Of a DNA stretch of 64,000 nt, positions 3,120-22,137 are shown piece after piece. How positions within the stretch are numbered: the stretch's first letter is position 1; every line of letters starts with the position of its first letter. The DNA is from a virus: the IMG/VR virus record IMGVR_UViG_3300042090_000199, positions 1 through 64,000 of that record. One strand, 5' to 3'. Both the position numbers and the translations under genes were made by a program. The notes under the pieces were generated by a model, which was not told the DNA's origin, did no database searches, and saw only the letters and a program-made list of their open reading frames with translations.

Positions 3120-3389
3120 ATGGGAATCCAGTTCAATGCCCTCGAGGGCGCACGCGAGTTCACGGACCAAGACCGGCGCAAGGTCCTCAAGGTTCTCGCG
3201 GACGTCGTTCACGAGATCCAGGACGCGCACAGGCTCGACGGGATGTTCGAGCCTTACGCTGAGATCGTCCACATGGTTCTGACGGACGACCGCATCGCGC
3301 GGAACTTCAAGGACGCGCGAGAGGAAGAGGCGCGCGGCAGGCACGAGCGCGCGGAAGACCATCACGGAACGCGTGACCACTTCATCTGA
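3120..3389 (+). CDS. Hypothetical protein (MGIQFNALE...)
   Basis: RBS GAAGGGA. Confidence 0.8.
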   Translation: MGIQFNALEGAREFTDQDRRKVLKVLADVVHEIQDAHRLDGMFEPYAEIVHMVLTDDRIARNFKDAREEEARGRHERAEDHHGTRDHFI

Positions 3390-11877: not shown

Positions 11878-12032
11878 TCCAGATTCGAGTGTTCTACTCG
11901 GACAACTTCATCCACGCCTCGAATTCCTACGTAGCACCAAGGAAGGTCACTGTGGTCGACCTTGAGCGTTACTTCAAGCAGTTTAACAAATACGGCTGGT
12001 CAGCTTGGGCTGAGATCGAAGTCGTATCATGA
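11874..12032 (+). CDS. Small hypothetical protein (MIQIRVFY...)
   Basis: ATGA overlaps at both ends. Confidence 0.7.
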   Translation: MIQIRVFYSDNFIHASNSYVAPRKVTVVDLERYFKQFNKYGWSAWAEIEVVS

Positions 12033-12229
12033 GTTACGAAGCAGTAAGCAGTCCGAACGCTCCGAGACCGGACGACCCTCTGGTCATTAGCATATCGGAA
12101 GGTCTGGCTGCGATAGCACGTAACTACGTGCGAGAAGGTTCCGGCCCGGGGTCTCGCTTCGAAGGGCGCCTACTTGAGGACGTCCAGGCAGAGTGGGTCG
12201 TGAGGGGGTTCAGAAGCAATGGGGCATGA
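12029..12229 (+). CDS. Hypothetical protein
   Basis: ATGA overlap. Confidence 0.7.
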   Translation: MSYEAVSSPNAPRPDDPLVISISEGLAAIARNYVREGSGPGSRFEGRLLEDVQAEWVVRGFRSNGA

Positions 12230-12554
12230 CTATCACCAAGGGCAGCCGAACTACAACCGGAAGCAGCTGTTTCATGATGGCTGTACCGAGTGTAAGCTAC
12301 GTGCAGAGAACCCCTCGTTCCTGTTCGACCATGTCGACATGCGAGAAGCATGGGCTCGAGCCATCAAGCTAGGCAAAGGCGAACTAGAAGACCATGATCT
12401 TCCGATCAGTGACATCGAGCAGCCAGTCCTGCGGATGCTGTGGTCCATGATCATAGGTCTCGAACGCCACGGACTCCCTATCGGGTCTTATCCACCAGAT
12501 GTAGCGGTAGTTCTAGGTCGTGCACGTCAGATCCTAGAGGACATTAAGAACTAG
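12219..12554 (+). CDS. Hypothetical protein
   Basis: ORF track; HDGCTEC motif. Confidence 0.75.
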   Translation: MGHDYHQGQPNYNRKQLFHDGCTECKLRAENPSFLFDHVDMREAWARAIKLGKGELEDHDLPISDIEQPVLRMLWSMIIGLERHGLPIGSYPPDVAVVLGRARQILEDIKN

Positions 12555-12580
12555 TACGAACACACAGAAAGAACCCGGCT

Positions 12581-13048
12581 ATGGCATCAAAAGTTATCAG
12601 GATCGAATTCCGAGGAGCGCACAAGTGCTTTAACCAGCTGCGCTCGAACAACAACCGAGGCCTCATAGCGGCCTACAGGTTCGGCGAGATCATGATGGTT
12701 CTGAACAGGCAGGGCTTTACGCTCGACGAGCTCGGCGCAGAATTCGACCGCAAGGCCAGAACGATCTCCATGTACATCAAGCTGTTCAAGATGTACGAGG
12801 ACGAGCAGGCACTGCTCTCAACGGCAGACAAGATGAAGACCTGGAGCGTCTCGCGTCTCACCGGCAACACCGCGGTCGAGCTCATGGTCTTCCTCTACCA
12901 CTGCAGCAACTGCGGTGCCAAGGGCGACGACATCGTCAAGACCAAGAGGCGGAAGGACGAAGTCGAAGCCGAGAAGGAACTAGCCGACGCAGCTACCGGC
13001 GCTACTACGGTCGAGTTCAAGGCGCCCGAATACAAGCAGGCGAACTAG
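12581..13048 (+). CDS. HTH plus Zn-ribbon protein, putative regulator
   Basis: GFTLDELGAEFDRKARTISMYIK helix-turn-helix pattern; CSNC. Confidence 0.6.
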   Translation: MASKVIRIEFRGAHKCFNQLRSNNNRGLIAAYRFGEIMMVLNRQGFTLDELGAEFDRKARTISMYIKLFKMYEDEQALLSTADKMKTWSVSRLTGNTAVELMVFLYHCSNCGAKGDDIVKTKRRKDEVEAEKELADAATGATTVEFKAPEYKQAN

Positions 13049-13281
13049 TGGACTCGATTAAGGCAGCTTTCGCAGCCGACATTCAGGAGCTCGTCAAGAA
13101 GGCTGTCGAAGACAAAGATACGGCCGTTCCTGACGGGTTTCCTAGGCTCAGCGATCAGTTCACAGATGTCGTCGCAATAGAGTATCAGCGCATCTCCGAT
13201 CTTGTAGGAGTAGTGCGAATCAACGGTGTATCAGGTAGAGGGCCTCGCTACTTCGAAGTCATCGTGAAGGAACGTTACTAG
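13048..13281 (+). CDS. Hypothetical protein
   Basis: TAGTG coupling. Confidence 0.7.
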   Translation: MDSIKAAFAADIQELVKKAVEDKDTAVPDGFPRLSDQFTDVVAIEYQRISDLVGVVRINGVSGRGPRYFEVIVKERY

Positions 13282-13322
13282 AGCCGTCGAGGCAGAGGCG
13301 AAACTCGCTCGATGCCTATAAT

Positions 13323-13580
13323 TAAAGATATCCAACCACAGAACGGAAGGAGGTGAGGCTCCTAGATATCCTAATAGTCAAAGGCTAGTAGTCTCAGAAA
13401 TCCAACTAGTAACCGGAGCAACAAATCATCCCACCGCTGGAAGTATACGCGGGGATGCAGCTAGGCTCACAGGCACCGTGGCCTGTGAGGGTGCCACACG
13501 AACAAGGGTTCGCGGACACCCAAACCATGCCAGCGCTACCCGACTGGCCACGCAGCATCAACAGGAACAGGGAAGGTACA
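13323..13580 (+). ncRNA. Candidate structured RNA or long leader
   Basis: TATAAT at 13317-13322 followed by a run of hairpins and no good ORF. Confidence 0.4.
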
Positions 13581-13582
13581 TA

Positions 13583-13693
13583 ATGGTCCGAGGCGCGAGC
13601 AACTCGCAGGGCCCAGATCCCGCCCAGAGTGACTGGGAACTCCAGGAACTCCGCAAGGCTCAGACCGACACCTGGACGCTGCAGGGTCTCTAA
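13583..13693 (+). CDS. Small peptide (36 aa, MVRGASNSQ...)
   Basis: RBS GGGAAGG; coding-like GC3. Confidence 0.55.
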   Translation: MVRGASNSQGPDPAQSDWELQELRKAQTDTWTLQGL

Positions 13694-13791
13694 CCCTTAG
13701 CAGTCCTCAAGACTCCGGGGCGCCTGGAGACAGGCGTCCCGGTTTGGGGCGCAACTAGCGCCTGTAGTAACAACTGAAAGGAACCCGATCC

Positions 13792-14829
13792 ATGATTGGG
13801 AAGAAGAGGAAGCTGGTAGTAGGTGCGATCATCGCGGTCGTCATCGCTATCGTCGCTGCCGTCATCGGTTCCAACCGAGCAACTGCAGCGCCTATCTACG
13901 GCGATACGTCGGCCACGGTGAGTCCTTTCACCTTGACCGATCACGGACCTCACGTGAGTACGCCGACGCCTCTGACGACGCCAGTGACCGTCCTGCCTGC
14001 GAGCATCCAGTTTCAGGCGATCGGGACGCCGCCCTTCCTCGGGGCGGATACCTGGCAGGTCAGTCCGGCGACGCTGGATGGCTACGCACTCCAGATCAAC
14101 AGCGCAGGTCTCCTGACCCTGACGCCGATCAGTGGAGCGACGCAGACCATCGGGGCTGGTGCTATCGCGGTTTCGGCGACTGACGTCCTCGGCGCGACGG
14201 GGCTGGATACCGTCACTATCGGGTTCGTCGACGCCACACACTCCAGCCTGACACAGGTGTCACACAACCTGCTGAACAACATCTTCGGCCTGAACAACAA
14301 CGCCAACGGCCAGGTCGACTTCTCACTGGTACCGACGCCCGCTCCGGCCGTAACCTGGTCGGCAGGGAACCTGCCCAACGGCACGGCGATGGCATCGAAC
14401 GGTATCCTGACGGCGACGAGCTCGATCCCCGGCGCCTACAATGAGGTGCCTGTGAGGGCTACAGACAGTGGCGGGGCAACAGCCGTCGCGGTCGTGGACC
14501 TGACTATCAAGGGTGCGATCGTCGGTAACGATACGCCGAGGCTGTCGCATGGGTATGCGGTTGCGGGAATCAACAGTTCCCGTGAGAACGTGTTCTACGA
14601 GCAGGACGGGTCGCCGTCCTGGGACCACTTCACCATCGTGGGCCCCGGCGCGATCAACGGTCACCAGGGTTGGGTTCACGGCCAGCTCGGACTGAACGAA
14701 GCGGTCTACGGAGGCCTGCTGGCGGGTCACGGTTACACCGTGTTCTACCAGCCGGTGACCGGACCAGGCTCGACCACGCCGTGGCCGGGTGCACACTGGG
14801 GCTACGTCTACTTCATTAGCGGACGATAG
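13792..14829 (+). CDS. Secreted protein with putative Ig-like (He_PIG-type) domains
   Basis: Signal peptide KKRK + hydrophobic + ATA|A; WSAGNLPNG...GILTAT...GAY...VRATDSGG. Confidence 0.75.
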   Translation: MIGKKRKLVVGAIIAVVIAIVAAVIGSNRATAAPIYGDTSATVSPFTLTDHGPHVSTPTPLTTPVTVLPASIQFQAIGTPPFLGADTWQVSPATLDGYALQINSAGLLTLTPISGATQTIGAGAIAVSATDVLGATGLDTVTIGFVDATHSSLTQVSHNLLNNIFGLNNNANGQVDFSLVPTPAPAVTWSAGNLPNGTAMASNGILTATSSIPGAYNEVPVRATDSGGATAVAVVDLTIKGAIVGNDTPRLSHGYAVAGINSSRENVFYEQDGSPSWDHFTIVGPGAINGHQGWVHGQLGLNEAVYGGLLAGHGYTVFYQPVTGPGSTTPWPGAHWGYVYFISGR

Positions 14830-14839
14830 TTACCTGAAC

Positions 14840-14955
14840 GTCCTGTCCGAGCCGTACGGCGCGGGAACGCCTTACGAGGCGGCTCGGGCAGGGCCTTGAG
14901 GTAACTATGGCAGTTGCCTTGAATGTCCTGTTCAGTTCTGGGTGCTGAACAGGGC
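14840..14955 (+). repeat. Two GTCCTG...CAGGGC hairpin units (14840-14894, 14925-14955)
   Basis: Same termini and upstream AAC/AAT as the 16.5 kb array. Confidence 0.8.
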
Positions 14956-14988
14956 TTTGAGGGCATTCTACAAAGGGAGGAACAAATA

Positions 14989-15312
14989 ATGACTAACTAC
15001 TACCCGAATAAGGACCGTACTGTACGTCTAGGGCGTCCACCAGCCTATCCTTGGAAAGAGTGGACTGACGGCACAGAGCGTCTTCTGGTTGAAGGGAAAG
15101 ACTTCCGGTGCATGGCTGAAAGCTTCGCCCTTCTAGCACGACGTACTGCACGTGTTCGAGGACTCCATGTGACAGTTTCTACCATAGCCGTTCCGAAGAG
15201 TGCAAAGACTCCGCTAGAGGTCAAAGTGAACGACGAACCTCAAAACCTTCAGCCAGGTAACACCTACGTCCTGCTCAAGTTCGAGCGGGAAGAGACTGAT
15301 GATGAGTCATGA
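14989..15312 (+). CDS. Hypothetical protein (MTNYYPNK...)
   Basis: RBS GGGAGG; GRPPAYPWKEWTDG motif. Confidence 0.75.
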   Translation: MTNYYPNKDRTVRLGRPPAYPWKEWTDGTERLLVEGKDFRCMAESFALLARRTARVRGLHVTVSTIAVPKSAKTPLEVKVNDEPQNLQPGNTYVLLKFEREETDDES

Positions 15313-15731
15313 CCATCGAAGTAGACCAGGATAAGTTCCGAGGCACTTGCCAGAACTATCGACACGGCCTAAGTTCGGACTACACCTGCCGCGTAGTACG
15401 ACCTGAAAACGGTCCTCTGAAGGTGTGCAGTAATTGTACTACATGGAGTATTACGGACGTTATCTACGAGGACTTGTACAAGGTCAGGATAGCGCAGACC
15501 TACGACTGGTGGCGCAGTGAGTTTATCAGGACAGGGCATTCTTACGCCAAGGACCGAATGACTGACCTGTATGCGGAACCTGTCACTACAGTAGCTGTCA
15601 AGGAGCCTATGCAAGTTCCAGTTAAGAGGCAGCCACCATCGTATCTATCCGTCGAAGACTCTGTCAGGGTAATACTGCTCTTCATCATAATCGTAGCCTT
15701 GTTCGTCGGGGTGTTCGTCGCGGTACTCTAG
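15309..15731 (+). CDS. C-terminally anchored membrane protein
   Basis: ATGA overlap; terminal hydrophobic helix. Confidence 0.75.
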   Translation: MTIEVDQDKFRGTCQNYRHGLSSDYTCRVVRPENGPLKVCSNCTTWSITDVIYEDLYKVRIAQTYDWWRSEFIRTGHSYAKDRMTDLYAEPVTTVAVKEPMQVPVKRQPPSYLSVEDSVRVILLFIIIVALFVGVFVAVL

Positions 15732-15781
15732 TCACAAACACAGTCTGCGAAAATTCAAGAATTTTTCCCCTCAGTAGCCTC

Positions 15782-15811
15782 TTGCAAGCCTCTTGAGGCT
15801 GCAGCTATAAT
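15782..15811 (+). promoter_or_regulatory. Phage promoter TTGCAA-N18-TATAAT
   Basis: Recurring geometry; would also drive the downstream RNA array. Confidence 0.8.
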
Positions 15812-15861
15812 ATTAACATACGCAGAAATGTGAAGCAGACTAGGGACAACAGGAGCTGATC

Positions 15862-16473
15862 ATGGCAAGCAGGCGTAGAGCCGCTCAACAGCCTGTGTCG
15901 GCGGACGAGCAAGAAGGGACAAACGAGATGACCGAAACTGACTTCGACGAAACCGTCGCTGTCGACGAAAAGCCTGAGCCGACCTACGACGAGCTGAAGG
16001 CTCGCGTCGTCGAGCTCGAGGAGCAGCTGGCCGCGGCAACCAAGTCGAAGACCAAGAAGGACAAGCCGGAGAAGCGCAAGCCTGATCTTCCCGACGGCTA
16101 TATCTCCCCTGTAGCCTTCCGTCACAAGCTGGTGGAGCTCGGCCTGGCCAACGAGAGCATGAGCCCTGTGCAGGTTTACGGGCTGGTACGCAAGGCCTCG
16201 TCCAACGGCATGCCTGTCAAGCACTTCGACAAGGCCGGCAACGTGTACGACGAGATCCAGACGCACCCCGTCACCAACGAGACGCTCACGCGGCCCGGCC
16301 TCATCGAGGAAGACGCTCTCAAGTGGTGGAAGGACCGTCCGAAGCGTCAGCCTGGCCAGCCCAAGCCGAAGACCGAAGGTGAGTCTGCGGACGCCTCCGA
16401 GGACTCGGATCTCGAGGACGCCGCCGCGGCCGAAGACCTTGCGGCGGACGAGGATTTTGACGAGGCCGAGTAG
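15862..16473 (+). CDS. Acidic, probably highly expressed protein; possible distant paralogue of 7774..8385
   Basis: RBS AGGAG; strong GC3 bias. Confidence 0.85.
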   Translation: MASRRRAAQQPVSADEQEGTNEMTETDFDETVAVDEKPEPTYDELKARVVELEEQLAAATKSKTKKDKPEKRKPDLPDGYISPVAFRHKLVELGLANESMSPVQVYGLVRKASSNGMPVKHFDKAGNVYDEIQTHPVTNETLTRPGLIEEDALKWWKDRPKRQPGQPKPKTEGESADASEDSDLEDAAAAEDLAADEDFDEAE

Positions 16474-16478
16474 CAAAC

Positions 16479-16748
16479 GTCCTGTCTGAGTGTTCCTAGG
16501 AATGGCGAGGCTCCGCTCAGACAGGATCCAAACGTCCTGTTCGGACCTGGGGTTTACAGCGGGCACCGAACAGGACCCAGACACCCTGATCTAGAGTCCC
16601 TAATAGGGTTCGTCCCAGTGGTAGGTATCTAGGTCAGGGCCCGAACGTCCTGCTCGGGAAGTGGCAACGATCCGTCTAGGAGCTCCTAGGCGACGACCAC
16701 ACGCCCGAGCAGGACTCAAACGTCCAGCTAGGCGCGTCTAGGACACCA
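16479..16748 (+). ncRNA. Tandem array of five hairpin units with fixed 6-nt linkers (candidate small-RNA array)
   Basis: Stems start at 16479, 16534, 16583, 16647, 16722; linkers CCAAAC, CCAGAC, CCGAAC, TCAAAC; compensatory stem changes. Confidence 0.75.
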
Positions 16749-17480
16749 AGGTTTCGATAGCTCGACCATGGTGTGGAAAGAAGCGGAAGCAGGACGAAAA
16801 GGCGAAGGGGACAACGCAGGTGAAGCGCAGACCAGCAGGCGCACCAGTCACACGTCCTGCCGAGTTGAACCACACCTCTGGTGTCCCCTTCGTCGCGTCG
16901 GGACGACACATGTGGGTGTCAGCACCGAGTACGCGCTCGGAACGTGTTGCACTGGTTCGAATCCAGGTCCCGGCTCGAGGCTCCGTCGTTCTCCCGTTCG
17001 ACGGAGCCTGCCTAGGTCGACCATCCGCAAAGGGAGTACACACACGAGGATGCTTCGGTCAGACTCCACCTAGGCATTACGCCGGCCCGGCGGCGTGCGT
17101 CTTGCTTCACCCTCCAGTGGCAGACGCGAAGGGTTCACCCCACTCACCGGGACCCACAATCGTAGCTGGCAGGAACACTCAACCTCGAGGACTCTTGAGT
17201 AAGGTCCGAAGCCGAGAGCACGTTTGCCTTATTGGCCCGTGCGCTAATATCGAGCCAGCCACTCAATCACCGGGCTGTCAGATGCGTAGTCTGAACAGCT
17301 GGCGGCCCGGCCATAACCCTGGGAGCACCTCCTATGGGCGGTCGATCGCGACAAGGCAAGCCGGGCCTGCTCTGCTGATCCTGCCCATGCGTGGCGGTGC
17401 AGCGGGAGGTGCTCCCAGGCCGACTGAAGGCTGCTGGATGTGTAGGCTTAATCTACAGCATAGAGTACCTGACCAGTGTG
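16749..17480 (+). ncRNA. Candidate large structured ncRNA containing a tRNA-like domain (16897-16975)
   Basis: Many 7-15 bp helices, a possible pseudoknot, TTCGAAT T-loop; no convincing ORF. Confidence 0.6.
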
Positions 17481-17499
17481 ACGTAAGAGAGGAGCGGTA

Positions 17500-17883
17500 A
17501 TGCCTACAGCTGTTGACGCTCGTCTGTACGAGCAGTGCTGCAAGGTCTACGACGCCATGAACGAAGCCGCACAGACCCGTAACGCCGACGGAGTCGCTGT
17601 CTATCGAGGTTACACGACCTACCTTCTTGAGCAGTGCGGCTACTCGATCAGCATTTACACTCCGGTCATGCGTAGACTTCGATCCATGGGTTGCGTTCAG
17701 CAAAAGGTCCGCGGAGGCCGTGGTATTCCTAGCGAGTGGCTAGTCATTAAGCCTCCGACGCGTGCGGCCTTTGCTCAGGGTGGGCAGCGATGGATGGCAC
17801 AACAGGAGCGCATTTCGGATTTGGAAGCTCGTGTCGAGATTCTCGAGGCACGCCTGGAAGAAGTCCCAGAAGAAGCCGTATAA
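17500..17883 (+). CDS. Putative winged-helix protein with C-terminal coiled coil
   Basis: RBS GAGGAG; VMRRLRSMGCV..VRGGRG wing-like pattern. Confidence 0.7.
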   Translation: MPTAVDARLYEQCCKVYDAMNEAAQTRNADGVAVYRGYTTYLLEQCGYSISIYTPVMRRLRSMGCVQQKVRGGRGIPSEWLVIKPPTRAAFAQGGQRWMAQQERISDLEARVEILEARLEEVPEEAV

Positions 17884-18032
17884 ATAATTCAGTAATAGCC
17901 AGTTCCTTTTTTCACTATAGGCCAGTAATCCAAATACTAAATACGAAATAGTCGGGAGGTGTTAGCAATGCGTAACTGGCTACACGATCTGGTCGAGGCT
18001 CTTTGCGACCATCCGGAATTGGACGATGACCT

Positions 18033-18278
18033 GTGAAGTGGCAAACAATTCACCCTGCTACATGCGCACACTGCGGGACTCCTGTAACAGATGTGAGACA
18101 CGTATGCGAACAGGCAATCAAGGACTGGCTAGCTCTGAATGCTGAGACATCTGTCCTACCTAAGCCTGGAAGATTCGTGTACGAAATCTTCCGAGAGCTT
18201 CAGGCCAAACCTTATCGTACGCTAGACCCTGATCCGTCTATACGTCCACCGATGGAAGACGTGATCAGCGACCTATAG
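18033..18278 (+). CDS. Hypothetical Zn-binding protein
   Basis: CAHC...HVC. Confidence 0.65.
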   Translation: MKWQTIHPATCAHCGTPVTDVRHVCEQAIKDWLALNAETSVLPKPGRFVYEIFRELQAKPYRTLDPDPSIRPPMEDVISDL

Positions 18279-18289
18279 GAGACAATAGT

Positions 18290-18412
18290 ATGCCCTGGTA
18301 CTTCTGGGTCTTCGTAGGTCTCTGCGGAGCCTGTGTTCTAGTTCTCCTGGTGTTCGTCGTCTTCCTAGGTTACATGCTAAAGCATTCCGGCGAAGGAAGA
18401 GGTAGTCGATAG
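18290..18412 (+). CDS. Small membrane protein
   Basis: RBS AGGAG; single hydrophobic helix. Confidence 0.7.
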   Translation: MPWYFWVFVGLCGACVLVLLVFVVFLGYMLKHSGEGRGSR

Positions 18413-18415
18413 CAT

Positions 18416-18574
18416 ATGAACTGTCGAACTTGTGGGGCGGAACTAATTCCAGGCACAGTCTCCGAAGGCGGTAACTGGACTAAAGATCGTCAGCAGAGCC
18501 AAGCCTACGAGTGCACGCCCTGTAACGCTCCTCAGAATTGTAACTGTGTAAGTCTGTACGGAGTATTGTTGTGA
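18416..18574 (+). CDS. Small Zn-ribbon protein (MNCRTCG...)
   Basis: CxxC..CxxC; GTGA overlap with helicase. Confidence 0.6.
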   Translation: MNCRTCGAELIPGTVSEGGNWTKDRQQSQAYECTPCNAPQNCNCVSLYGVLL

Positions 18575-20061
18575 CTACGACACTATACCAGCAACTATAC
18601 AGGTTCCAACAAGAGCTCGTCGACAAGTTGGGAAGTCCTGATATTCCAGCCCGTCTCATTGGGGACGAAATGGGAACCGGCAAGACATATGAGGCTATAG
18701 CCATCGAAGACCGTCTACGACGCACACACACAGGCACCAAGATGCGCACCCTCATTGTTGCGCCTTGGAGCGTTCATGAAACCTGGAAACGTAAGCTCAT
18801 AGAGCTACTTGGTCTAAAGCCTGCTGATGTTGTTGTTATTGACCGTAAGAAGAGGACTACCTTTCTACGAGCTGTCCAGCTCGGCCAGGCCAAGTATTAT
18901 ATTGTGCACTACGAAGCTCTGCGCATTGCAGACATGCAGCCGTTGCAGCGCATCCATTGGTTCCATATCATTGCAGACGAGATTCATCGAATCAAGTCTC
19001 CTAAAGCATTGCAGACGAAAGCTTTTAAGCGTCTCAAGGCTCAGTTTAAGACAGGCATGTCTGGTTCGATTGCAGACGATCGCCCTCAGGACTTCTGGAG
19101 CCCTCTACACTGGGCTCGTCCTGATCTGTTTCCGAACGTCTCGACGAAGGACCCTACCAAACTATTCGTCAAGGACTGGTGCGAGACTGAAGAGTTCGAA
19201 GGCCGTTTTCTCGGTATCGACGACGATGGTAACGAACTCCATCAGATGCATAAGCGTGTCACAGGTATGCGTCAGGATCGTCTCGACGAGTTTCACGCGC
19301 TTATCGCGCCGTTCTATATGCGTCGGCTGAAAGAAGACGTTCTCGATCTGCCTGAGAAGGTTTTCAGTCCCGTTCACGTTACCTTGTACGCCGGACAGCA
19401 AAAGGTGTACGACCAGCTGAAGCGTGAGTTCATAGCTTGGATCGGCGAACACGAAGACGAAGAGCTACGAATCAACCGTATGTTCGTCTTCGCACAGCTC
19501 GTGCGTCTGCAGCAAGCTGCCCTAGCGTCCTTGATGTTCAGGGATACTGGCAAGGCTGACCGCTTCGGCAAGCCGATCAAGAAGGTTGCACTACGTGAAC
19601 CTTCAGCCAAACTAGATGCCTTTGTAGACTGGGCTTCTGACGTTAACAGTCCTGTCGTCGTGTTCAGTCAAAGCAGAGGCATGATAGACCTGACTGCAGC
19701 AAGACTTGATGCAGCCGGAGCTCGCGTAGGCGTTTACACAGGCGGAACTCCTGATAAAGTTCGTCAGCAAATCATAGACAACTTCAGCGCAGGCAAGCTA
19801 GACTTCTTTCTTGGCACGATCAAGGCTGGAGGAGAAGGCGTTGACGGTCTGCAACGAGCGTCTAGCACAATGGTGTTTTTTGATAGGGCCTGGGGACCGT
19901 TCAGGAATAAGCAAGCTGAAGATCGTCTGCATCGTGAAGGTCAGAAGAGTTCGGTCCAAATCGTTGACTTCTACGCTCCGAAAACTGTAGATGCAAAGGT
20001 TCGAGCGACAAATATCCGTAAGTGGCGAGACCTTCGCCAGATCCTAGGAGATGAGAGATAG
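18571..20061 (+). CDS. SNF2-family (SF2) helicase
   Basis: DEMGTGKT, ADEIH, MSGS, GGEGVDG, QAEDRLHREGQ. Confidence 0.92.
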   Translation: MTTTLYQQLYRFQQELVDKLGSPDIPARLIGDEMGTGKTYEAIAIEDRLRRTHTGTKMRTLIVAPWSVHETWKRKLIELLGLKPADVVVIDRKKRTTFLRAVQLGQAKYYIVHYEALRIADMQPLQRIHWFHIIADEIHRIKSPKALQTKAFKRLKAQFKTGMSGSIADDRPQDFWSPLHWARPDLFPNVSTKDPTKLFVKDWCETEEFEGRFLGIDDDGNELHQMHKRVTGMRQDRLDEFHALIAPFYMRRLKEDVLDLPEKVFSPVHVTLYAGQQKVYDQLKREFIAWIGEHEDEELRINRMFVFAQLVRLQQAALASLMFRDTGKADRFGKPIKKVALREPSAKLDAFVDWASDVNSPVVVFSQSRGMIDLTAARLDAAGARVGVYTGGTPDKVRQQIIDNFSAGKLDFFLGTIKAGGEGVDGLQRASSTMVFFDRAWGPFRNKQAEDRLHREGQKSSVQIVDFYAPKTVDAKVRATNIRKWRDLRQILGDER

Positions 20062-20062
20062 C

Positions 20063-20482
20063 ATGGAAGACCTACAGGACCGTATCTACACCGTCGTCGA
20101 GGAAGCCCTTCCTCTGAGTAGTACAGGTCTCAATGTCCTGGGGTTCGACGTAGTCTTCGGCAACTGGGACGTCAACGGGAATCCTACTGCAGCCTACGCC
20201 ATAATCATCGTCGCTAGGCCTACGCTACCTGGAGGCGCGGCGCTCCTGGATAACAGTCCTGCAGACGTACACGTTCAGATCATCGGTCAGGTGACTCTTG
20301 AAGGACCTGCAGGAGACTTCTATCCCTCCGACAAGACTATTCGGGCACACGTCAAGACAGCCTGCGACGCGATGCGTCTGAAGGCGACGCAGAAGCAGGC
20401 ACCTTCTAACGGTGGTGCAGTACCACCTAACCCGTTCACGGAGGCTCTCAAGCGTCATCAACAGCAGCGTGAGCAAGGATAG
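20063..20482 (+). CDS. Hypothetical protein
   Basis: ORF track (alternative start 20051). Confidence 0.75.
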   Translation: MEDLQDRIYTVVEEALPLSSTGLNVLGFDVVFGNWDVNGNPTAAYAIIIVARPTLPGGAALLDNSPADVHVQIIGQVTLEGPAGDFYPSDKTIRAHVKTACDAMRLKATQKQAPSNGGAVPPNPFTEALKRHQQQREQG

Positions 20483-20516
20483 TAACGATACCTCAAAAAG
20501 ATCTTGCTGGAGCCTC

Positions 20517-20546
20517 TAGCATTTCTGTTAGGTCTCGTGATATAAT
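20517..20546 (+). promoter_or_regulatory. Phage promoter TAGCAT-N18-TATAAT
   Basis: Recurring geometry; upstream AAAAAGATCTTGC shared with the 4432 promoter. Confidence 0.8.
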
Positions 20547-20582
20547 TAAGTAAGGAAAGAATAGTGGTGTTCGGGAGCGGCT

Positions 20583-20780
20583 GTGAGTCGTAAGTATAAC
20601 TGTAAACATCCGAACCGTGGCATTTCGAAGTACATCGATCGTCTTAGACGTAGAGGCCTTAGTAAGGCGCCCAGGATGGAACCTCTAGCAGACCTGAAGA
20701 AGCGTCAGAAGATCGAACCTATTCCCGAGTCTGAGATAGTCCGAGCAGGCTGGGGTCTCGGAGGCGAAGATGTCGGCTGA
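20583..20780 (+). CDS. Small basic protein
   Basis: RBS GGGAG. Confidence 0.65.
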   Translation: MSRKYNCKHPNRGISKYIDRLRRRGLSKAPRMEPLADLKKRQKIEPIPESEIVRAGWGLGGEDVG

Positions 20781-21066
20781 AGAAGACTTTCAGGCGTTCT
20801 GGGAAAAGAAGACAGGAACCTCCAATAGACATCCTAGAGAAGTCCTCATACGAGGTTACCAGTTTTACGATCTTCTTCTAGAGGCCTTCACAGCAGGGCG
20901 TGAAAGTGTCGAACCGGTTATCAATCCTGAATGGTGCAAGGAGATAGTTACCTTGCACAGGTCCAACTCGAACTTCTGGACCATACCAGAACTAGCCAAG
21001 CTATTCCAACTTCCAGAAGACCAAGTCAGGGAGATCCTGAATGCCAAGCAAGACGCTACTGGTTAA
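20770..21066 (+). CDS. Protein with C-terminal HTH
   Basis: WTIPELAKLFQLPEDQVREIL. Confidence 0.65.
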   Translation: MSAEEDFQAFWEKKTGTSNRHPREVLIRGYQFYDLLLEAFTAGRESVEPVINPEWCKEIVTLHRSNSNFWTIPELAKLFQLPEDQVREILNAKQDATG

Positions 21067-21829
21067 CGAAATCTTCGGTCCAACGATACAGGGTGAAGGT
21101 CCTGCAATGGGCCGACGCTGTGCTTTCGTTCGGCTAGCAATCTGCCCGTTGCGCTGCAAGTGGTGCGACACTCCTTACACGTGGGCCTTCTCGAACCCTA
21201 TTGCCGCGCACCATCAGAGTCACAAGGTGTACGACTATACCGAGGAAGTTCGCGAGATGACCGTAGGCGACGTTGTCAGCCAGGCTATCTTCTGTGCATC
21301 AGGTGCTAACCTCGTAGTCCTATCAGGTGGTGAACCGCTAGCTCAGGTCCCTGTCCCGCTACAGGATCCTGGAATCAAGCTGGAAGAGTCTTACGGCGAC
21401 CCTGTAGGGCTCCTGGTAAATACGCTGCTAGAGGCAGGTATCGAGACGCATATCGAGACTGCAGGCGTTCGTAGACCTAGCCCGTTCTTGCACGAAGCTG
21501 TAGGTGGATATGTCGTTTCGCCTAAGCTGGTCACTAGTGGTAACAGTCTCAAGGTAAGACGAGACCTAGACGTCCTGAGGTTCTTCGCGGACACGAATAA
21601 GGCGTTCTTCAAGTTCGTGATTACGGAACCGAACGACTTCTCCGAGATCAGCCAGATAGCAGCCCTATGTAGTATCCCGCCGTGGCGCATATGGGTAATG
21701 CCGGAAGGCACGACGCCCAAAGCTATCCAGGAAAAGATGACGTTCGTAGCAGACCGTGGAATTCGAGCAGGCTACAACGTCTCGTCACGTCTACACATCC
21801 TGGCTTGGGGCGACCAGAGAGCACACTGA
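21041..21829 (+). CDS. queE: 7-carboxy-7-deazaguanine synthase (radical SAM)
   Basis: EIFGPTIQGEG, CPLRCKWCDT, SGGEP, VSPKL, RLHIL. Confidence 0.95.
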   Translation: MPSKTLLVNEIFGPTIQGEGPAMGRRCAFVRLAICPLRCKWCDTPYTWAFSNPIAAHHQSHKVYDYTEEVREMTVGDVVSQAIFCASGANLVVLSGGEPLAQVPVPLQDPGIKLEESYGDPVGLLVNTLLEAGIETHIETAGVRRPSPFLHEAVGGYVVSPKLVTSGNSLKVRRDLDVLRFFADTNKAFFKFVITEPNDFSEISQIAALCSIPPWRIWVMPEGTTPKAIQEKMTFVADRGIRAGYNVSSRLHILAWGDQRAH

Positions 21830-22137
21830 TGTCTTACTCTTCCAAAGAACTATGCACTCGTGCGCGCATTACGAAACGCCAGATGGATAACTGGTATCGA
21901 ATGGGATGGCTAGAACCATTCGAACGTCGAGAGCAAGCAGGATCTGGAACGCCTCTGGAGTGGCCAACTCGGACCTTCGAGAAGGCTAAGCTAATGTCAC
22001 GTCTTATTCGTGCAGGGTTCAAGGTTCAGGAAGCTAACGAAATAGCTGACAGACTTATGAATGACACTACCGCGCGTGCGGATTCAATGCACGATATCGA
22101 CCTAGGCGATAATATACGACTCAGGCTGTTCGTATAG
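21829..22137 (+). CDS. MerR-like HTH DNA-binding protein
   Basis: TGATG coupling; ELCTRARITKRQMDNWYRMGWLEP. Confidence 0.7.
   Translation: MSYSSKELCTRARITKRQMDNWYRMGWLEPFERREQAGSGTPLEWPTRTFEKAKLMSRLIRAGFKVQEANEIADRLMNDTTARADSMHDIDLGDNIRLRLFV

What the first reader, a model, noticed from the sequence alone, without database searches (positions are those of the whole stretch)
16749..17480. ~730-nt highly paired noncoding region, candidate large ncRNA
Seen helices: 16770-76/16870-76; 16789-96/16853-60; 16801-13/16882-94 (crosses the previous two, so a pseudoknot or alternative fold); 16979-88/16999-17008; 17009-17/17068-76; 17270-81/17299-310; and a perfect 15-bp helix 17318-32/17405-19. The genome is otherwise densely coding, and ORFs here lack an RBS and coding bias. 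Established: phages carry large structured RNAs such as GOLLD and ROOL. I cannot assign this one to a known class.
Basis: partly seen in the sequence, partly recalled or inferred. Interest (0 to 1): 0.75.

Follow-up and report, generated by a model that had tools for sequence, protein, structure and literature searches.

The report
Phage structured-RNA array threaded by ORF
A 1-kb gap between two early genes of an uncultivated wetland phage is a transcribed row of independently folding RNA hairpins plus a tRNA look-alike, matches no catalogued RNA family, and is oddly kept free of stop codons in one frame although the encoded peptide is not conserved.

Summary
All seven helices exist. The region folds better than shuffles (z -4.7), and five helices are kept in related phages with compensatory changes. 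The gap is really 16474-17499.

It is not one large GOLLD/ROOL-like RNA. It is a mosaic of modules that come and go among relatives: 4-5 tandem GUCCUG...CAGGAC hairpins, a conserved long hairpin (M1), an 8/4 tRNA-like element (16897-16974), further hairpins, a multi-helix domain (M6), and a ~105-nt hairpin (M8). M8 has 18 of 36 pairs covarying and sits upstream of the next gene in eight loci.

G.U pairs outnumber A.C 51 to 5, so the + strand RNA is what folds. Four wetland metatranscriptomes hold the stretch while neighbouring genes are silent. Rfam and ARAGORN find nothing above threshold.

One + frame (16820-17500) is stop-free in nearly all relatives (P<=0.002-0.018). Yet it shows no codon-position bias, dN/dS like the other frames, and no codon usage, and the same RNA motif is read in all three phases. 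My best reading is a coupling ORF that carries ribosomes to the next gene.

This scan found the same combination earlier in a related phage on other DNA.

The parts
15782..15811 (+). sigma-70-like promoter, TTGCAA-18-TATAAT (context)
   Evidence: 10 of 12 matches. RNA-library contigs begin at 15834/15835 in two runs.
15862..16473 (+). Upstream gene p203 (context): MerR/excisionase-like HTH core with an acidic tail
   Evidence: Homologues lie upstream of the gap in all relatives. AF2 core pLDDT is about 90; the best fold matches are weak, Z 4-5, to Xis/BldC/MerR-type domains. This is a lead only.
16479..16527 (+). Array hairpin 1 (GUCCUG... / ...CAGGAU, 12-14 bp stem)
   Evidence: (I9).
16534..16576 (+). 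Array hairpin 2 (11-bp stem, 21-nt loop)
   Evidence: (I8).
16585..16640 (+). Array hairpin 3 (CCCUGAUCUAGA / UCUAGGUCAGGG, 12 bp, degenerate base)
   Evidence: Read from the sequence; repeat family D1.
16647..16715 (+). Array hairpin 4 (12-bp stem, 45-nt loop)
   Evidence: (I7). Conserved in L002 at 3161-3230.
16722..16795 (+). Possible fifth, imperfect array unit (GUCCAGC ... GCAGGAC, 6 of 7 pairs)
   Evidence: Read from the sequence, with the same 6/7 pairing in L002. Inference.
16801..16894 (+). M1: long hairpin with outer helix 16801-13/16882-94 and inner helix 16818-22/16873-77. It holds SD-like AAGGGG (16805-10) and GTG 16820.
   Evidence: 13/13 pairs in 4 of 5 sequences and 11/13 in L004, with G.U-making single changes. 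The inner helix is 5/5 in all. The apical part is variable or deleted.
16897..16974 (+). tRNA-like element, 8/4 type. Acceptor 16897-904/16967-74 (8 bp); D arm 16905-20; irregular anticodon-like arm 16925-40 with a 6-nt loop; T arm 16952-66 (4 bp + UUCGAAU); no encoded CCA.
   Evidence: Weak tRNA-Sec cmscan hit at 17 bits, E 3.3. ARAGORN calls it only at 90% threshold. Three pairs have double compensatory change versus L002. L004, L008 and L006 carry a different tRNA-like element at the same site, with 6 covarying pairs.
16979..17008 (+). M3 hairpin directly after the tRNA-like element
   Evidence: 10/10 pairs in window, L002 and L004 with different sequences; 5 pairs with double change.
17009..17076 (+). 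M4 hairpin, present only in window, L002 and L004
17078..17097 (+). M5 G+C-rich hairpin, terminator-like (tail CGUCUUGCUU)
   Evidence: The stem is compensated in L008 and L006 (GGGCUGU...AGCCU).
17165..17259 (+). M6 multi-helix domain closed by GCUGGC/GCCAGC; conserved core CUUGAGUAAGGUCCGAAG
   Evidence: The closing helix is compensated (GCCGGC/GCCGGC in L002 and L004). It is 89% identical over 112 nt in L008 and 97% over 61 nt in L007, where the neighbouring protein is only 68-70% identical. The core also occurs in L009 and L011.
17270..17310 (+). M7 hairpin
   Evidence: 12/12 pairs, compensated in L002 and L006.
17318..17419 (+). M8: ~105-nt irregular hairpin. It has a 15-16-bp outer helix, a 15-nt 3'-side internal loop (..GGCG..), an 8-bp second helix, and a conserved GUCGAUC / CUGAUCC core.
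   Evidence: 36 pairs, 18 with changes on both sides versus 6.4 +/- 1.8 in shuffles (0/500), and 96% of cells paired. Model R1 also finds it in L007, L011 and L009. The + strand scores 126 bits against 23 for the - strand.
16820..17500 (+). Stop-free frame (226 codons from GTG; open from 16742) that ends in TAATG on the start of the next gene
   Evidence: P = 0.002 versus dinucleotide shuffles. P = 0.011 of staying open after the 122 observed substitutions. There is no coding signature.
17500..17883 (+). Downstream gene p127 (context): winged helix plus C-terminal coiled coil
   Evidence: 26 homologues. AF2 pLDDT 86; weak PadR/MarR/RepA_N-type matches.

Best explanation
The gap 16474-17499 is a + strand, transcribed array of independently folding RNA modules. 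It sits in the leader between two HTH-protein genes of a phage early/replication operon.

Shown:
- The modules fold as RNA on the + strand.
- They covary, and they are gained, lost and swapped among related phages.
- One of them is an 8/4 tRNA-like element.
- The stretch is present in RNA libraries while neighbouring genes are not.
- One frame through M1-M8 is kept free of stop codons without any constraint on the peptide.

Inferred mechanism:
(1) The array is co-transcribed with p203 from the promoter at 15782-15811.
(2) The tRNA-like element, and perhaps the 11-12-bp minihelix-like hairpins, are recognised by host tRNA-processing enzymes (RNase P, RNase Z). These cut the transcript and leave stable structured RNAs.
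(3) The stop-free frame is a coupling ORF. Ribosomes that start at GTG 16820, whose SD is masked in M1, or right after the p203 stop in the short-gap relatives, must run through the structured leader. They end on or just before the p127 start (TAATG, ATGA, or a stop beside the SD).
(4) Only RNA insertions that keep the frame open are therefore tolerated. The peptide itself is irrelevant.
For: Structure:
- Helices verified; z -4.7.
- Pairs with double compensatory change: M1 3, tRNA-like A 3, tRNA-like B 6, M3 5, M5-M6 4, M7 3, M8 18 of 36.
- Strand: 51 G.U against 5 A.C cells in the helices; R1 scores 126 bits on + and 23 on -.

Modularity:
- The gap is 1026, 914, 933, ~924, 707, 457, ~500 and ~190 nt in relatives, with different module sets.
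- M8 lies 16-80 nt before the p127 start in 7 loci.

RNA:
- Four metatranscriptome runs from four studies hold the stretch at >=99% identity.
- Contigs cover 15834-17155 (X3 to 17649).
- Nothing is laid on 17678-21685 or 15006-15673 in any run, so this is not DNA carry-over.
- One contig bridges p203, the array, M1 and the tRNA-like element (15835-16985).

Open frame:
- The longest + frame is 182-280 codons in window, L002, L004, L006 and L008, and 207-232 in L011 and L012, against a shuffle mean of 100-126. P is 0.000-0.018.
- Indels versus L002 and L004 sum to multiples of 3.

No peptide constraint:
- Substitutions by codon position are 32/44/45, and 22/25/28 and 34/35/40 for the distant pairs.
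- dN/dS is 0.66, against 0.65-1.25 in the other five frames.
- Codon LLR is 0.007 per codon, against 0.25-0.49 in nine of ten test genes (one at 0.09); GC2 is 0.62.
- The M8 anchor GUCGAUC is read in phase 2, 1 or 0 in different lineages.
- Only 5 protein homologues exist, against 26 for p127.

Coupling geometry:
- The ORF stop overlaps or abuts the p127 start in 9 loci.
- In L013-15 the stop lies between SD and ATG, and the SD is paired in a CCACCCUCC/GGGAGGAGG hairpin.
- An in-frame ATG lies 7-21 nt after the p203 stop in L009, L011, L012 and L013.
Against: - No direct evidence of translation, of RNase P/Z cleavage, or of RNA ends. The RNA data are contigs without strand information.
- A 226-codon coupling ORF through 15-bp G+C-rich helices is unusually long, and p127 has its own strong SD (AAGAGAGGAG).
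- The SD-like site for GTG 16820 is buried in a 13-bp helix.
- The M6 core (LSK.RS) is read in the same phase in four lineages, so a short conserved peptide is not excluded.
- L007 breaks the open-frame rule, though that contig looks chimeric.
- The close relatives are few: three near-identical lineages plus about five distant ones.
Confidence: 0.5

Rival explanations
1. The stretch is one large ornate non-coding RNA, a new GOLLD/ROOL-like class, that folds as a single unit and acts in trans. The first reader proposed this.
For: About 730-1000 nt with very dense pairing, z -4.7, in a phage, with a tRNA-like element inside or beside it as is common for GOLLD and ROOL (established knowledge). 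RNA-library contigs cover it.
Against: No Rfam hit even at E<=10. Relatives delete or replace M4, M7, the array units and the tRNA-like element, and L008, L006, L011 and L013 keep only subsets. Every conserved helix is local. The only long-range helices proposed are not conserved.
Confidence: 0.1
2. The array is chiefly a polycistronic precursor of trans-acting small RNAs. These would be tRNA mimics and hairpin RNAs released by RNase P/Z, for example decoys for host tRNA-directed enzymes or defences. Under this reading the open frame is secondary.
For: - An 8/4 tRNA-like element, with swapped or additional tRNA-like genes in relatives: L006 tRNA(GCG) with a long variable arm, and L012 tRNA-like (UUA).
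- The array stems are 11-12 bp, the length of a tRNA acceptor/T minihelix.
- The L006 tRNA acceptor stem GGUCCUG/CAGGACC has the sequence of the array hairpin base.
- Polycistrons of irregular and allo-tRNA-like sequences were reported from forest and peat metatranscriptomes (PMC5389517).
- A short RNA-library contig at 16990-17138/17155 carries Illumina adapter letters at 16996 (X6) and 17138 (X7).
Against: It does not explain the stop-free frame. It also does not explain why the most widely kept module (M8) always abuts the p127 start. The tRNA-like element has no 7-nt anticodon loop and no CCA, and its 'anticodon' differs between close relatives. No targets are known.
Confidence: 0.2
3. ORF 16820-17500 is a real gene for a fast-evolving, Arg/Pro/Gly-rich basic protein, and the RNA pairing is secondary.
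For: The frame is open in nearly all relatives. Indels preserve the frame. An SD-like site lies 9 nt before GTG. There is a TAATG overlap with the next gene. The LSK.RS stretch is read in the same phase in four lineages, with AGU/AGC changes.
Against: - dN/dS equals that of non-coding frames, and there is no third-position excess.
- There is no codon usage signal, and GC2 is 0.62.
- Conserved RNA motifs are read in three phases.
- tRNA-like genes lie inside the frame.
- No Pfam or PHROG family matches.
- Only 5 homologues exist among 5.8 billion clusters, and all conservation tracks nucleotide identity.
Confidence: 0.08
4. The stretch is a DNA-level element. It could be a replication origin or operator region, with iterons CAAACGTCCTG x5 and inverted repeats, for the adjacent winged-helix protein and helicase. 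Alternatively it could be an attP site carrying a tRNA 3' end.
For: Five direct 11-nt repeats. p127 gives weak winged-helix/RepA_N/DnaD_N-type leads. A helicase gene lies at 18571-20061. The T-arm/acceptor-like sequence resembles attP cores.
Against: G.U outnumbers A.C 51 to 5, and the strand-specific model score points to single-stranded + RNA. The repeats are the bases of covarying hairpins at irregular spacing (55, 49, 64, 75 nt). No integrase was seen nearby. The conserved M1 22-mer was not found in 185,579 species genomes. The tRNA-like element is a complete, covarying cloverleaf-like fold, not a 3' fragment. An origin function could still co-exist.
Confidence: 0.1

Closest known systems
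Polycistrons of irregular and allo-tRNA-like sequences from forest and peat soil metatranscriptomes (Mukai et al. 2017, NAR 45:2776, PMC5389517)
   Same: Soil or wetland metatranscriptome origin. tRNA-like elements with a 12-bp acceptor branch split 8/4. Irregular D and anticodon regions. Several structured units in one transcript. GCG and UUA anticodons in relatives' elements, as among published allo-tRNAs.
   Different: This locus lies in a phage operon. Most modules are not tRNA-like at all. The window's element has a 6-nt anticodon-like loop and no long variable arm. A stop-free frame threads the array. Sequence identity with the published polycistrons could not be tested because the supplement is not held.
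GOLLD and ROOL RNAs (large ornate RNAs of phages and prophages, in Rfam)
   Same: Hundreds of nucleotides of dense, conserved RNA structure in a phage, associated with tRNA-like sequence, function unknown.
   Different: No match to either covariance model even at E<=10. There is no conserved global architecture: modules are lost and swapped. It is threaded by an open frame.
Phage T4 tRNA-cluster stable RNAs (species 1 and 2) and phage tRNA gene clusters (established knowledge, not tested here)
   Same: Phage-encoded tRNA-like or hairpin RNAs in one early transcript, matured by host RNase P.
   Different: There is no canonical tRNA anywhere in this 77.7-kb record. The modules lie in the leader of a protein gene, inside an open frame.
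Translational coupling through structured RNA (MS2 coat-replicase long-distance interaction; leader ORFs that open a masked RBS) and in-frame palindromic elements (Rickettsia palindromic elements). Established knowledge, used as analogies.
   Same: An upstream ORF ends on or beside the downstream start. In the short relatives the downstream SD is masked in a hairpin. Structured insertions are tolerated only if they keep the frame, and the peptide sequence is unconstrained.
   Different: The coupling ORF is 150-280 codons long and made almost wholly of conserved RNA modules, including tRNA-like elements. Neither translation nor coupling is shown.

Membership tests
GOLLD / ROOL (Rfam covariance models) | Match to the family covariance model at or near the gathering score | tested here: not met
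   cmscan of the whole window at gathering gave 0 hits. cmscan of 16300-17700 at E<=10 gave only five chance-level hits, none to GOLLD or ROOL. Ten related loci gave 0 hits.
GOLLD / ROOL (Rfam covariance models) | One conserved multi-domain architecture shared by homologues | tested here: not met
   Modules M4, M7, the array units and the type of tRNA-like element differ among relatives, and the gap ranges from 190 to 1026 nt.
Canonical tRNA (RF00005 / ARAGORN) | Cloverleaf that reaches model thresholds, with a 7-nt anticodon loop | tested here: not met
   ARAGORN finds 0 genes. RF00005 gives no hit at E<=1 in the whole 77.7-kb record, while the controls are positive. The loop is 6 nt (or 4 or 8), and it differs between window and L002.
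Canonical tRNA (RF00005 / ARAGORN) | Acceptor stem plus T arm with a UUCGAAU-type loop | tested here: met
   8-bp acceptor 16897-904/16967-74 and T arm CUGG-UUCGAAU-CCAG, with compensatory changes in L002.
allo-tRNA / irregular tRNA polycistrons (Mukai 2017) | 12-bp acceptor branch split 8/4 or 9/3 | tested here: met
   8 + 4 bp in window and L002. An A.G mismatch prevents a fifth T-stem pair, and the eighth acceptor pair C-G is formed. The type-B element of L004, L008 and L006 reads as 8/5 or 9/4.
allo-tRNA / irregular tRNA polycistrons (Mukai 2017) | Long variable arm and long anticodon stem with a 7-nt loop | tested here: not met
   The window element has an 11-nt variable region without a stem and a 6-nt loop. 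Only the extra L006 element has a long variable arm.
allo-tRNA / irregular tRNA polycistrons (Mukai 2017) | Sequence similarity to the published polycistron units (tRNA0/1/2) | not testable with these tools
   No supplementary sequences are held for PMC5389517.
tmRNA | tRNA-like domain formed by the 5' and 3' ends, plus a tag ORF and pseudoknots | tested here: not met
   ARAGORN tmRNA search finds none, and there is no Rfam tmRNA hit.
Protein-coding gene (ORF 16820-17500) | Open frame maintained among relatives | tested here: met
Protein-coding gene (ORF 16820-17500) | Purifying selection on amino acids (third-position excess, dN/dS below the other frames) and host-like codon usage | tested here: not met
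   32/44/45 substitutions by codon position. dN/dS is 0.66, like the other frames. LLR is 0.007 per codon. Conserved motifs are read in three phases.

The most novel reading that the evidence does not exclude
The locus represents an undescribed arrangement: mobile or duplicating structured-RNA cassettes, including allo-tRNA-like elements, that colonise a translated leader ORF of a phage operon. They persist only if they keep the frame open, so the same RNA serves two roles. It is a ribosome track that gates the downstream replication or regulator gene, and it is a source of stable tRNA-like and hairpin RNAs. Ribosome transit and RNA folding or processing would compete with each other.
Probability: 0.25. 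Interest if true: 0.8.

Novelty: new variant of a known kind. Interest (0 to 1): 0.6.

Why it matters
Phage non-coding RNAs are poorly charted. This locus adds several covarying motifs that are absent from Rfam (M1, M6, M8), and it gives a phage context for the puzzling 8/4 'irregular tRNA' polycistrons seen in soil metatranscriptomes.

The combination of strong RNA-level conservation with a stop-free but peptide-indifferent frame appears in at least five lineages. If it is real, it would show selection on translatability itself. That would be a mechanism linking RNA cassette insertion, RNA processing and translational coupling, and it can be tested directly with reporters. It also warns that gene callers annotate such arrays as 'hypothetical proteins'.

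Tried and rejected
- **Known RNA families.** Rfam at gathering and at E<=10 gave nothing usable. ARAGORN at default found nothing in the window.

- **Similar DNA elsewhere.** blastn against 50,697 phage records gave no match. The M1 22-mer pattern found only the known relative in viral contigs and nothing in genome contigs. The p127 family was not found in genome contigs, so no host or prophage is known.

- Contigs of a further 15 or so p127 homologues and of P0030 could not be fetched.

- **ORF as a protein.** Pfam and PHROGs give nothing for the ORF, p203 or p127.

- **RNA-contig gaps.** In three of four runs, contigs stop at 16860-16880 and resume at 16987-16996, so the tRNA-like element is uncovered. 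I first read this as excision. A part without cover is no finding, because contigs are filtered, no DNA run was laid, and X3 bridges the element. I treat it as at most a weak hint.

- **Contig depths.** Depths were 27x for 16.4-16.9 kb against 3.5-5.7x for p203 pieces. They cannot rank expression and are not used as evidence.

- **Resemblances checked and dropped.**
  - RNase P RNA and SRP RNA (GAGUAAGGUCCG, GUAGCUGGCAGG) have no model support.
  - Pairing of array linkers CAAACG with the M6 loop CGUUUG is absent in L002 and L004.
  - The anti-SD-like CACCUCCU in M8 is not conserved in L006, L007, L009 or L011.
  - A programmed frameshift from p203 into the ORF is excluded by stops in all frames within the array.

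- **Neighbouring proteins.** Fold searches for p127 and p203 gave only weak HTH matches.
Full report
**Source and setting.** The window is the first 64 kb of a 77.7-kb IMG/VR phage contig. Sequencing runs that hold the stretch come mostly from wetland metagenomes. The reported stretch lies in a larger gap, 16474-17499. Upstream is ORF 15862-16473 (p203) and downstream is ORF 17500-17883 (p127), which is followed by a helicase gene at 18571-20061.

**Observation.**
- The 732 nt fold at -328 kcal/mol against -289 +/- 8 for dinucleotide shuffles, z -4.7. The minus strand gives z -4.0.
- Rfam gives nothing at gathering. At E<=10 there are only chance-level hits, the most telling a 17-bit tRNA-Sec match at 16897-16974. 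ARAGORN finds no tRNA or tmRNA.

**Relatives.**
- The two flanking proteins led to one close phage, IMGVR_UViG_3300021478_000216, held as L002, L003, L005 and L010.
- An alignment of 24 p127 homologues led to L004, L006-L009 and L011-L015.
- The p203-p127 gap is 1026 nt here. It is 914 nt in L002, 933 in L004, about 924 in L006, 707 in L008, 457 in L011, about 500 in L012 and about 190 in L013-15. L009 has a real-looking protein gene in part of the gap.
- blastn shows that only pieces of the window's gap recur in the more distant loci.

**Modules.** Alignment A3, cut into blocks, shows the following.
- **Hairpin array.** There are 4-5 hairpins with a conserved base GUCCUG.../...CAGGAC and 11-14-bp stems. 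Loops are unrelated, 21-45 nt, and linkers are YCAAAC. Copy number differs among relatives.
- **M1 (16801-16894).** The two strands are invariant in five sequences. The apical part is variable or deleted.
- **tRNA-like element (16897-16974).** It has an 8-bp acceptor stem and a 5-bp D stem. The anticodon-like arm is irregular, with a 6-nt loop. The T arm is CUGG-UUCGAAU-CCAG, and no CCA is encoded.
  - L002 keeps this element with three doubly compensated pairs.
  - L004, L008 and L006 carry a different tRNA-like element at the same place, with 6 covarying pairs.
  - L006 has in addition an ARAGORN tRNA(GCG) with a long variable arm.
  - L012 has a tRNA-like (UUA) element right after the p203 stop.
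- **M3.** This hairpin follows the tRNA-like element in all five sequences, with 5 doubly compensated pairs.
- **M4.** Found in only three sequences.
- **M5.** A G+C-rich hairpin.
- **M6.** Closed by GCUGGC/GCCAGC, compensated to GCCGGC/GCCGGC. It is more conserved than the neighbouring proteins: 89% over 112 nt in L008 and 97% over 61 nt in L007.
- **M7.** A compensated hairpin.
- **M8 (17318-17419).** Described in the next section.

CAGGAC at 16790 fits better as the 3' arm of an imperfect fifth array unit.

**M8.**
- RNAalifold on five sequences gives 36 pairs, 18 with changes on both sides.
- The pair count gives 96% of cells paired. It gives 18 doubly changed pairs against 6.4 +/- 1.8 in shuffles (0/500) and 1-3 in slid controls.
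- Covariance model R1 also finds M8 in L007 (48 bits), L011 (44 bits) and L009 (26 bits). Each has a different but perfectly complementary 14-15-bp outer helix.
- M8 ends 16-80 nt before the p127 start. In L009 one gene lies between them.
- It scores 126 bits on the + strand and 23 on the - strand.

**RNA, not DNA.** Over all modelled helices there are 51 G.U cells against 5 A.C cells. This asymmetry is expected only if the + strand folds as a single strand.

**Expression.**
- Four metatranscriptomic runs from four studies, probably one campaign, hold the stretch.
- Laid on 12000-22000, their contigs are >=99% identical. They cover 13.4-14.8 kb and 15834-17155, and X3 reaches 17649.
- Nothing lies on 15006-15673 or 17678-21685 in any run. 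This argues against DNA carry-over.
- A sigma-70-like promoter sits at 15782-15811, and contigs begin at 15834/15835.
- One contig runs from p203 through the array, M1 and the tRNA-like element.
- Contigs cannot show strand, ends or levels. I treat the uncovered tRNA-like element in three runs, and the adapter-flanked 16990-17138/17155 piece, as weak hints only.

**The open frame.** ORF 16820-17500 is open in every close relative. An equivalent + frame spans the gap in L006, L008, L011, L012 and L013.
- Against dinucleotide shuffles, the longest + frame has P = 0.002, 0.000, 0.002, 0.002, 0.010, 0.018 and 0.008 in seven loci. Minus-strand frames look like the shuffles.
- Placing the 122 observed window-L002 substitutions at random keeps the frame open in 1.1% of trials. 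For L004 the figure is 7%.
- Indels sum to multiples of three.

Nothing else about the frame looks like a protein.
- Substitutions by codon position are 32/44/45. In conserved blocks of distant pairs they are 22/25/28 and 34/35/40.
- dN/dS is 0.66-0.67, against 0.65-1.25 in the other five frames.
- Codon log-likelihood is 0.007 per codon, against 0.25-0.49 for nine of ten test genes and 0.09 for the tenth. GC2 is 0.62, against 0.38-0.54.
- Amino-acid identity is 68% where p127 shows 92%.
- Only five homologues exist in 5.8 billion clusters, against 26 for p127.
- tRNA-like genes lie inside the frame.
- The conserved M8 anchor GUCGAUC is read in phase 2, 1 or 0 in different lineages.
- One exception is noted: the M6 core reads LSK.RS in the same phase in four lineages.

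**Why keep it open?** The geometry points to translational coupling.
- The ORF stop overlaps the p127 ATG as TAATG in window, L002 and L004, and as ATGA in L006 and L011.
- In L008, L012 and L013 the stop lies just before the SD or between SD and ATG.
- In L013-15 the SD is paired in a CCACCCUCC/GGGAGGAGG hairpin whose loop alone varies.
- In L009, L011, L012 and L013 an in-frame ATG lies 7-21 nt after the p203 stop.
- In the expanded loci, the array has stops in all frames. Entry would be at GTG 16820, 9 nt after AAGGGG, and both are invariant and masked in M1.

I infer that an ancestral short coupling ORF has been invaded by RNA modules, and that only frame-keeping insertions survive. This is inference: no translation data exist.

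**Neighbours.**
- p127 is a winged helix with a C-terminal coiled coil. AF2 pLDDT is 86, with weak PadR/MarR/RepA_N-type matches.
- The p203 core resembles MerR/excisionase-type HTH domains at Z 4-5.

Neither protein suggests an RNA-binding partner. A replication-origin role for the DNA cannot be excluded, but it does not explain the RNA signals.

**Comparison with known systems.**
- The closest published parallel is the set of 'polycistrons of irregular and allo-tRNA-like sequences' in forest and peat metatranscriptomes, with 8/4 acceptor branches (PMC5389517; review PMC7609411).
- The 8/4 feature is met here. The long variable arm and the 7-nt anticodon loop are not. Sequences could not be compared.
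- GOLLD and ROOL membership fails on both model score and architecture.

**Earlier notes of this scan.** Notes on a related phage genome (e1-6035073, e1-6035067) reached the same 'structured array kept translatable' reading. I had found the open frame independently. I took from those notes the lead to the allo-tRNA paper.

**Verdict.** The feature is real, expressed and conserved. It is a modular structured-RNA array with a tRNA-like element, not a single large RNA. It is a new variant among phage tRNA-like and structured-RNA loci. The selected but peptide-indifferent open frame is genuinely unexplained, and coupling is my best account of it.

Noticed in passing
window 14827-14965: Two more GUCCUG...CAGGGC hairpins (14840-14894, 16-bp stem; 14925-14955, 12-bp stem) lie right after the stop of ORF 13792-14829. 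The first sits inside a 9-bp outer stem (AUAGUUACC/GGUAACUAU) across a UGAAC/CUUGA internal loop. RNA-library contigs of that gene end at 14774-14823, before the hairpins.
   Followed up: partly
L007:374-1185: This 2-kb metagenome contig joins an RND (AcrB-like) transporter fragment directly to a 61-nt stretch 97% identical to window 17206-17266. M8 (1061-1160) and a p127 homologue follow. It may be a chimeric assembly or a captured host fragment. It is the only locus where the open frame does not span M8.
   Followed up: partly
L006:618-707: An extra ARAGORN tRNA-Arg(GCG) with a long variable arm is inserted between M1 and the tRNA-like element. Its acceptor stem GGUCCUG/CAGGACC has the same sequence as the base of the array hairpins, which hints that the hairpins derive from tRNA-like acceptor stems.
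   Followed up: partly
L012:2484-2564 and about 2900-2975: A tRNA-like element with anticodon UUA (ochre-reading) starts 6 nt after the p203 stop. A second T-arm plus acceptor-like 3' half (GCGGGUUCGAAUCCCGUCCGGUCCAC) lies just before the p127 SD. Both are inside the open frame.
   Followed up: no
L013:2880-2990, L014:2880-2990: About 110 nt of the short (190-nt) gap is 100% identical between two phages whose neighbouring p203 proteins are about 76% identical. It ends in an SD-masking hairpin CCACCCUCC-NNN-GGGAGGAGG in which only the loop varies (UAC, CGU, CAU).
   Followed up: partly
window 17071-17080 and 17497-17506: Ten-nt perfect complementarity exists between the end of M4 (UAGGCAUUAC) and the p127 start region (GUAAUGCCUA, containing the ATG). 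L002 keeps it through a G.U pair. About 0.5 such matches are expected by chance in 1 kb, so this is unproven.
   Followed up: partly
whole record G000 (77.7 kb): The phage record has no canonical tRNA gene (RF00005 at E<=1; ARAGORN on the window), although it carries a tRNA-like element and a preQ0/DpdA-type gene set (QueE-like at 21041-21829).
   Followed up: partly
window 17318-17332 / 17405-17419: In the window, L002, L004 and L008 the M8 outer helix pairs CACCUCCU, identical to the 16S rRNA 3' end (anti-SD), with GGGAGGUG. Other lineages have unrelated helix sequences, so this is probably incidental.
   Followed up: yes
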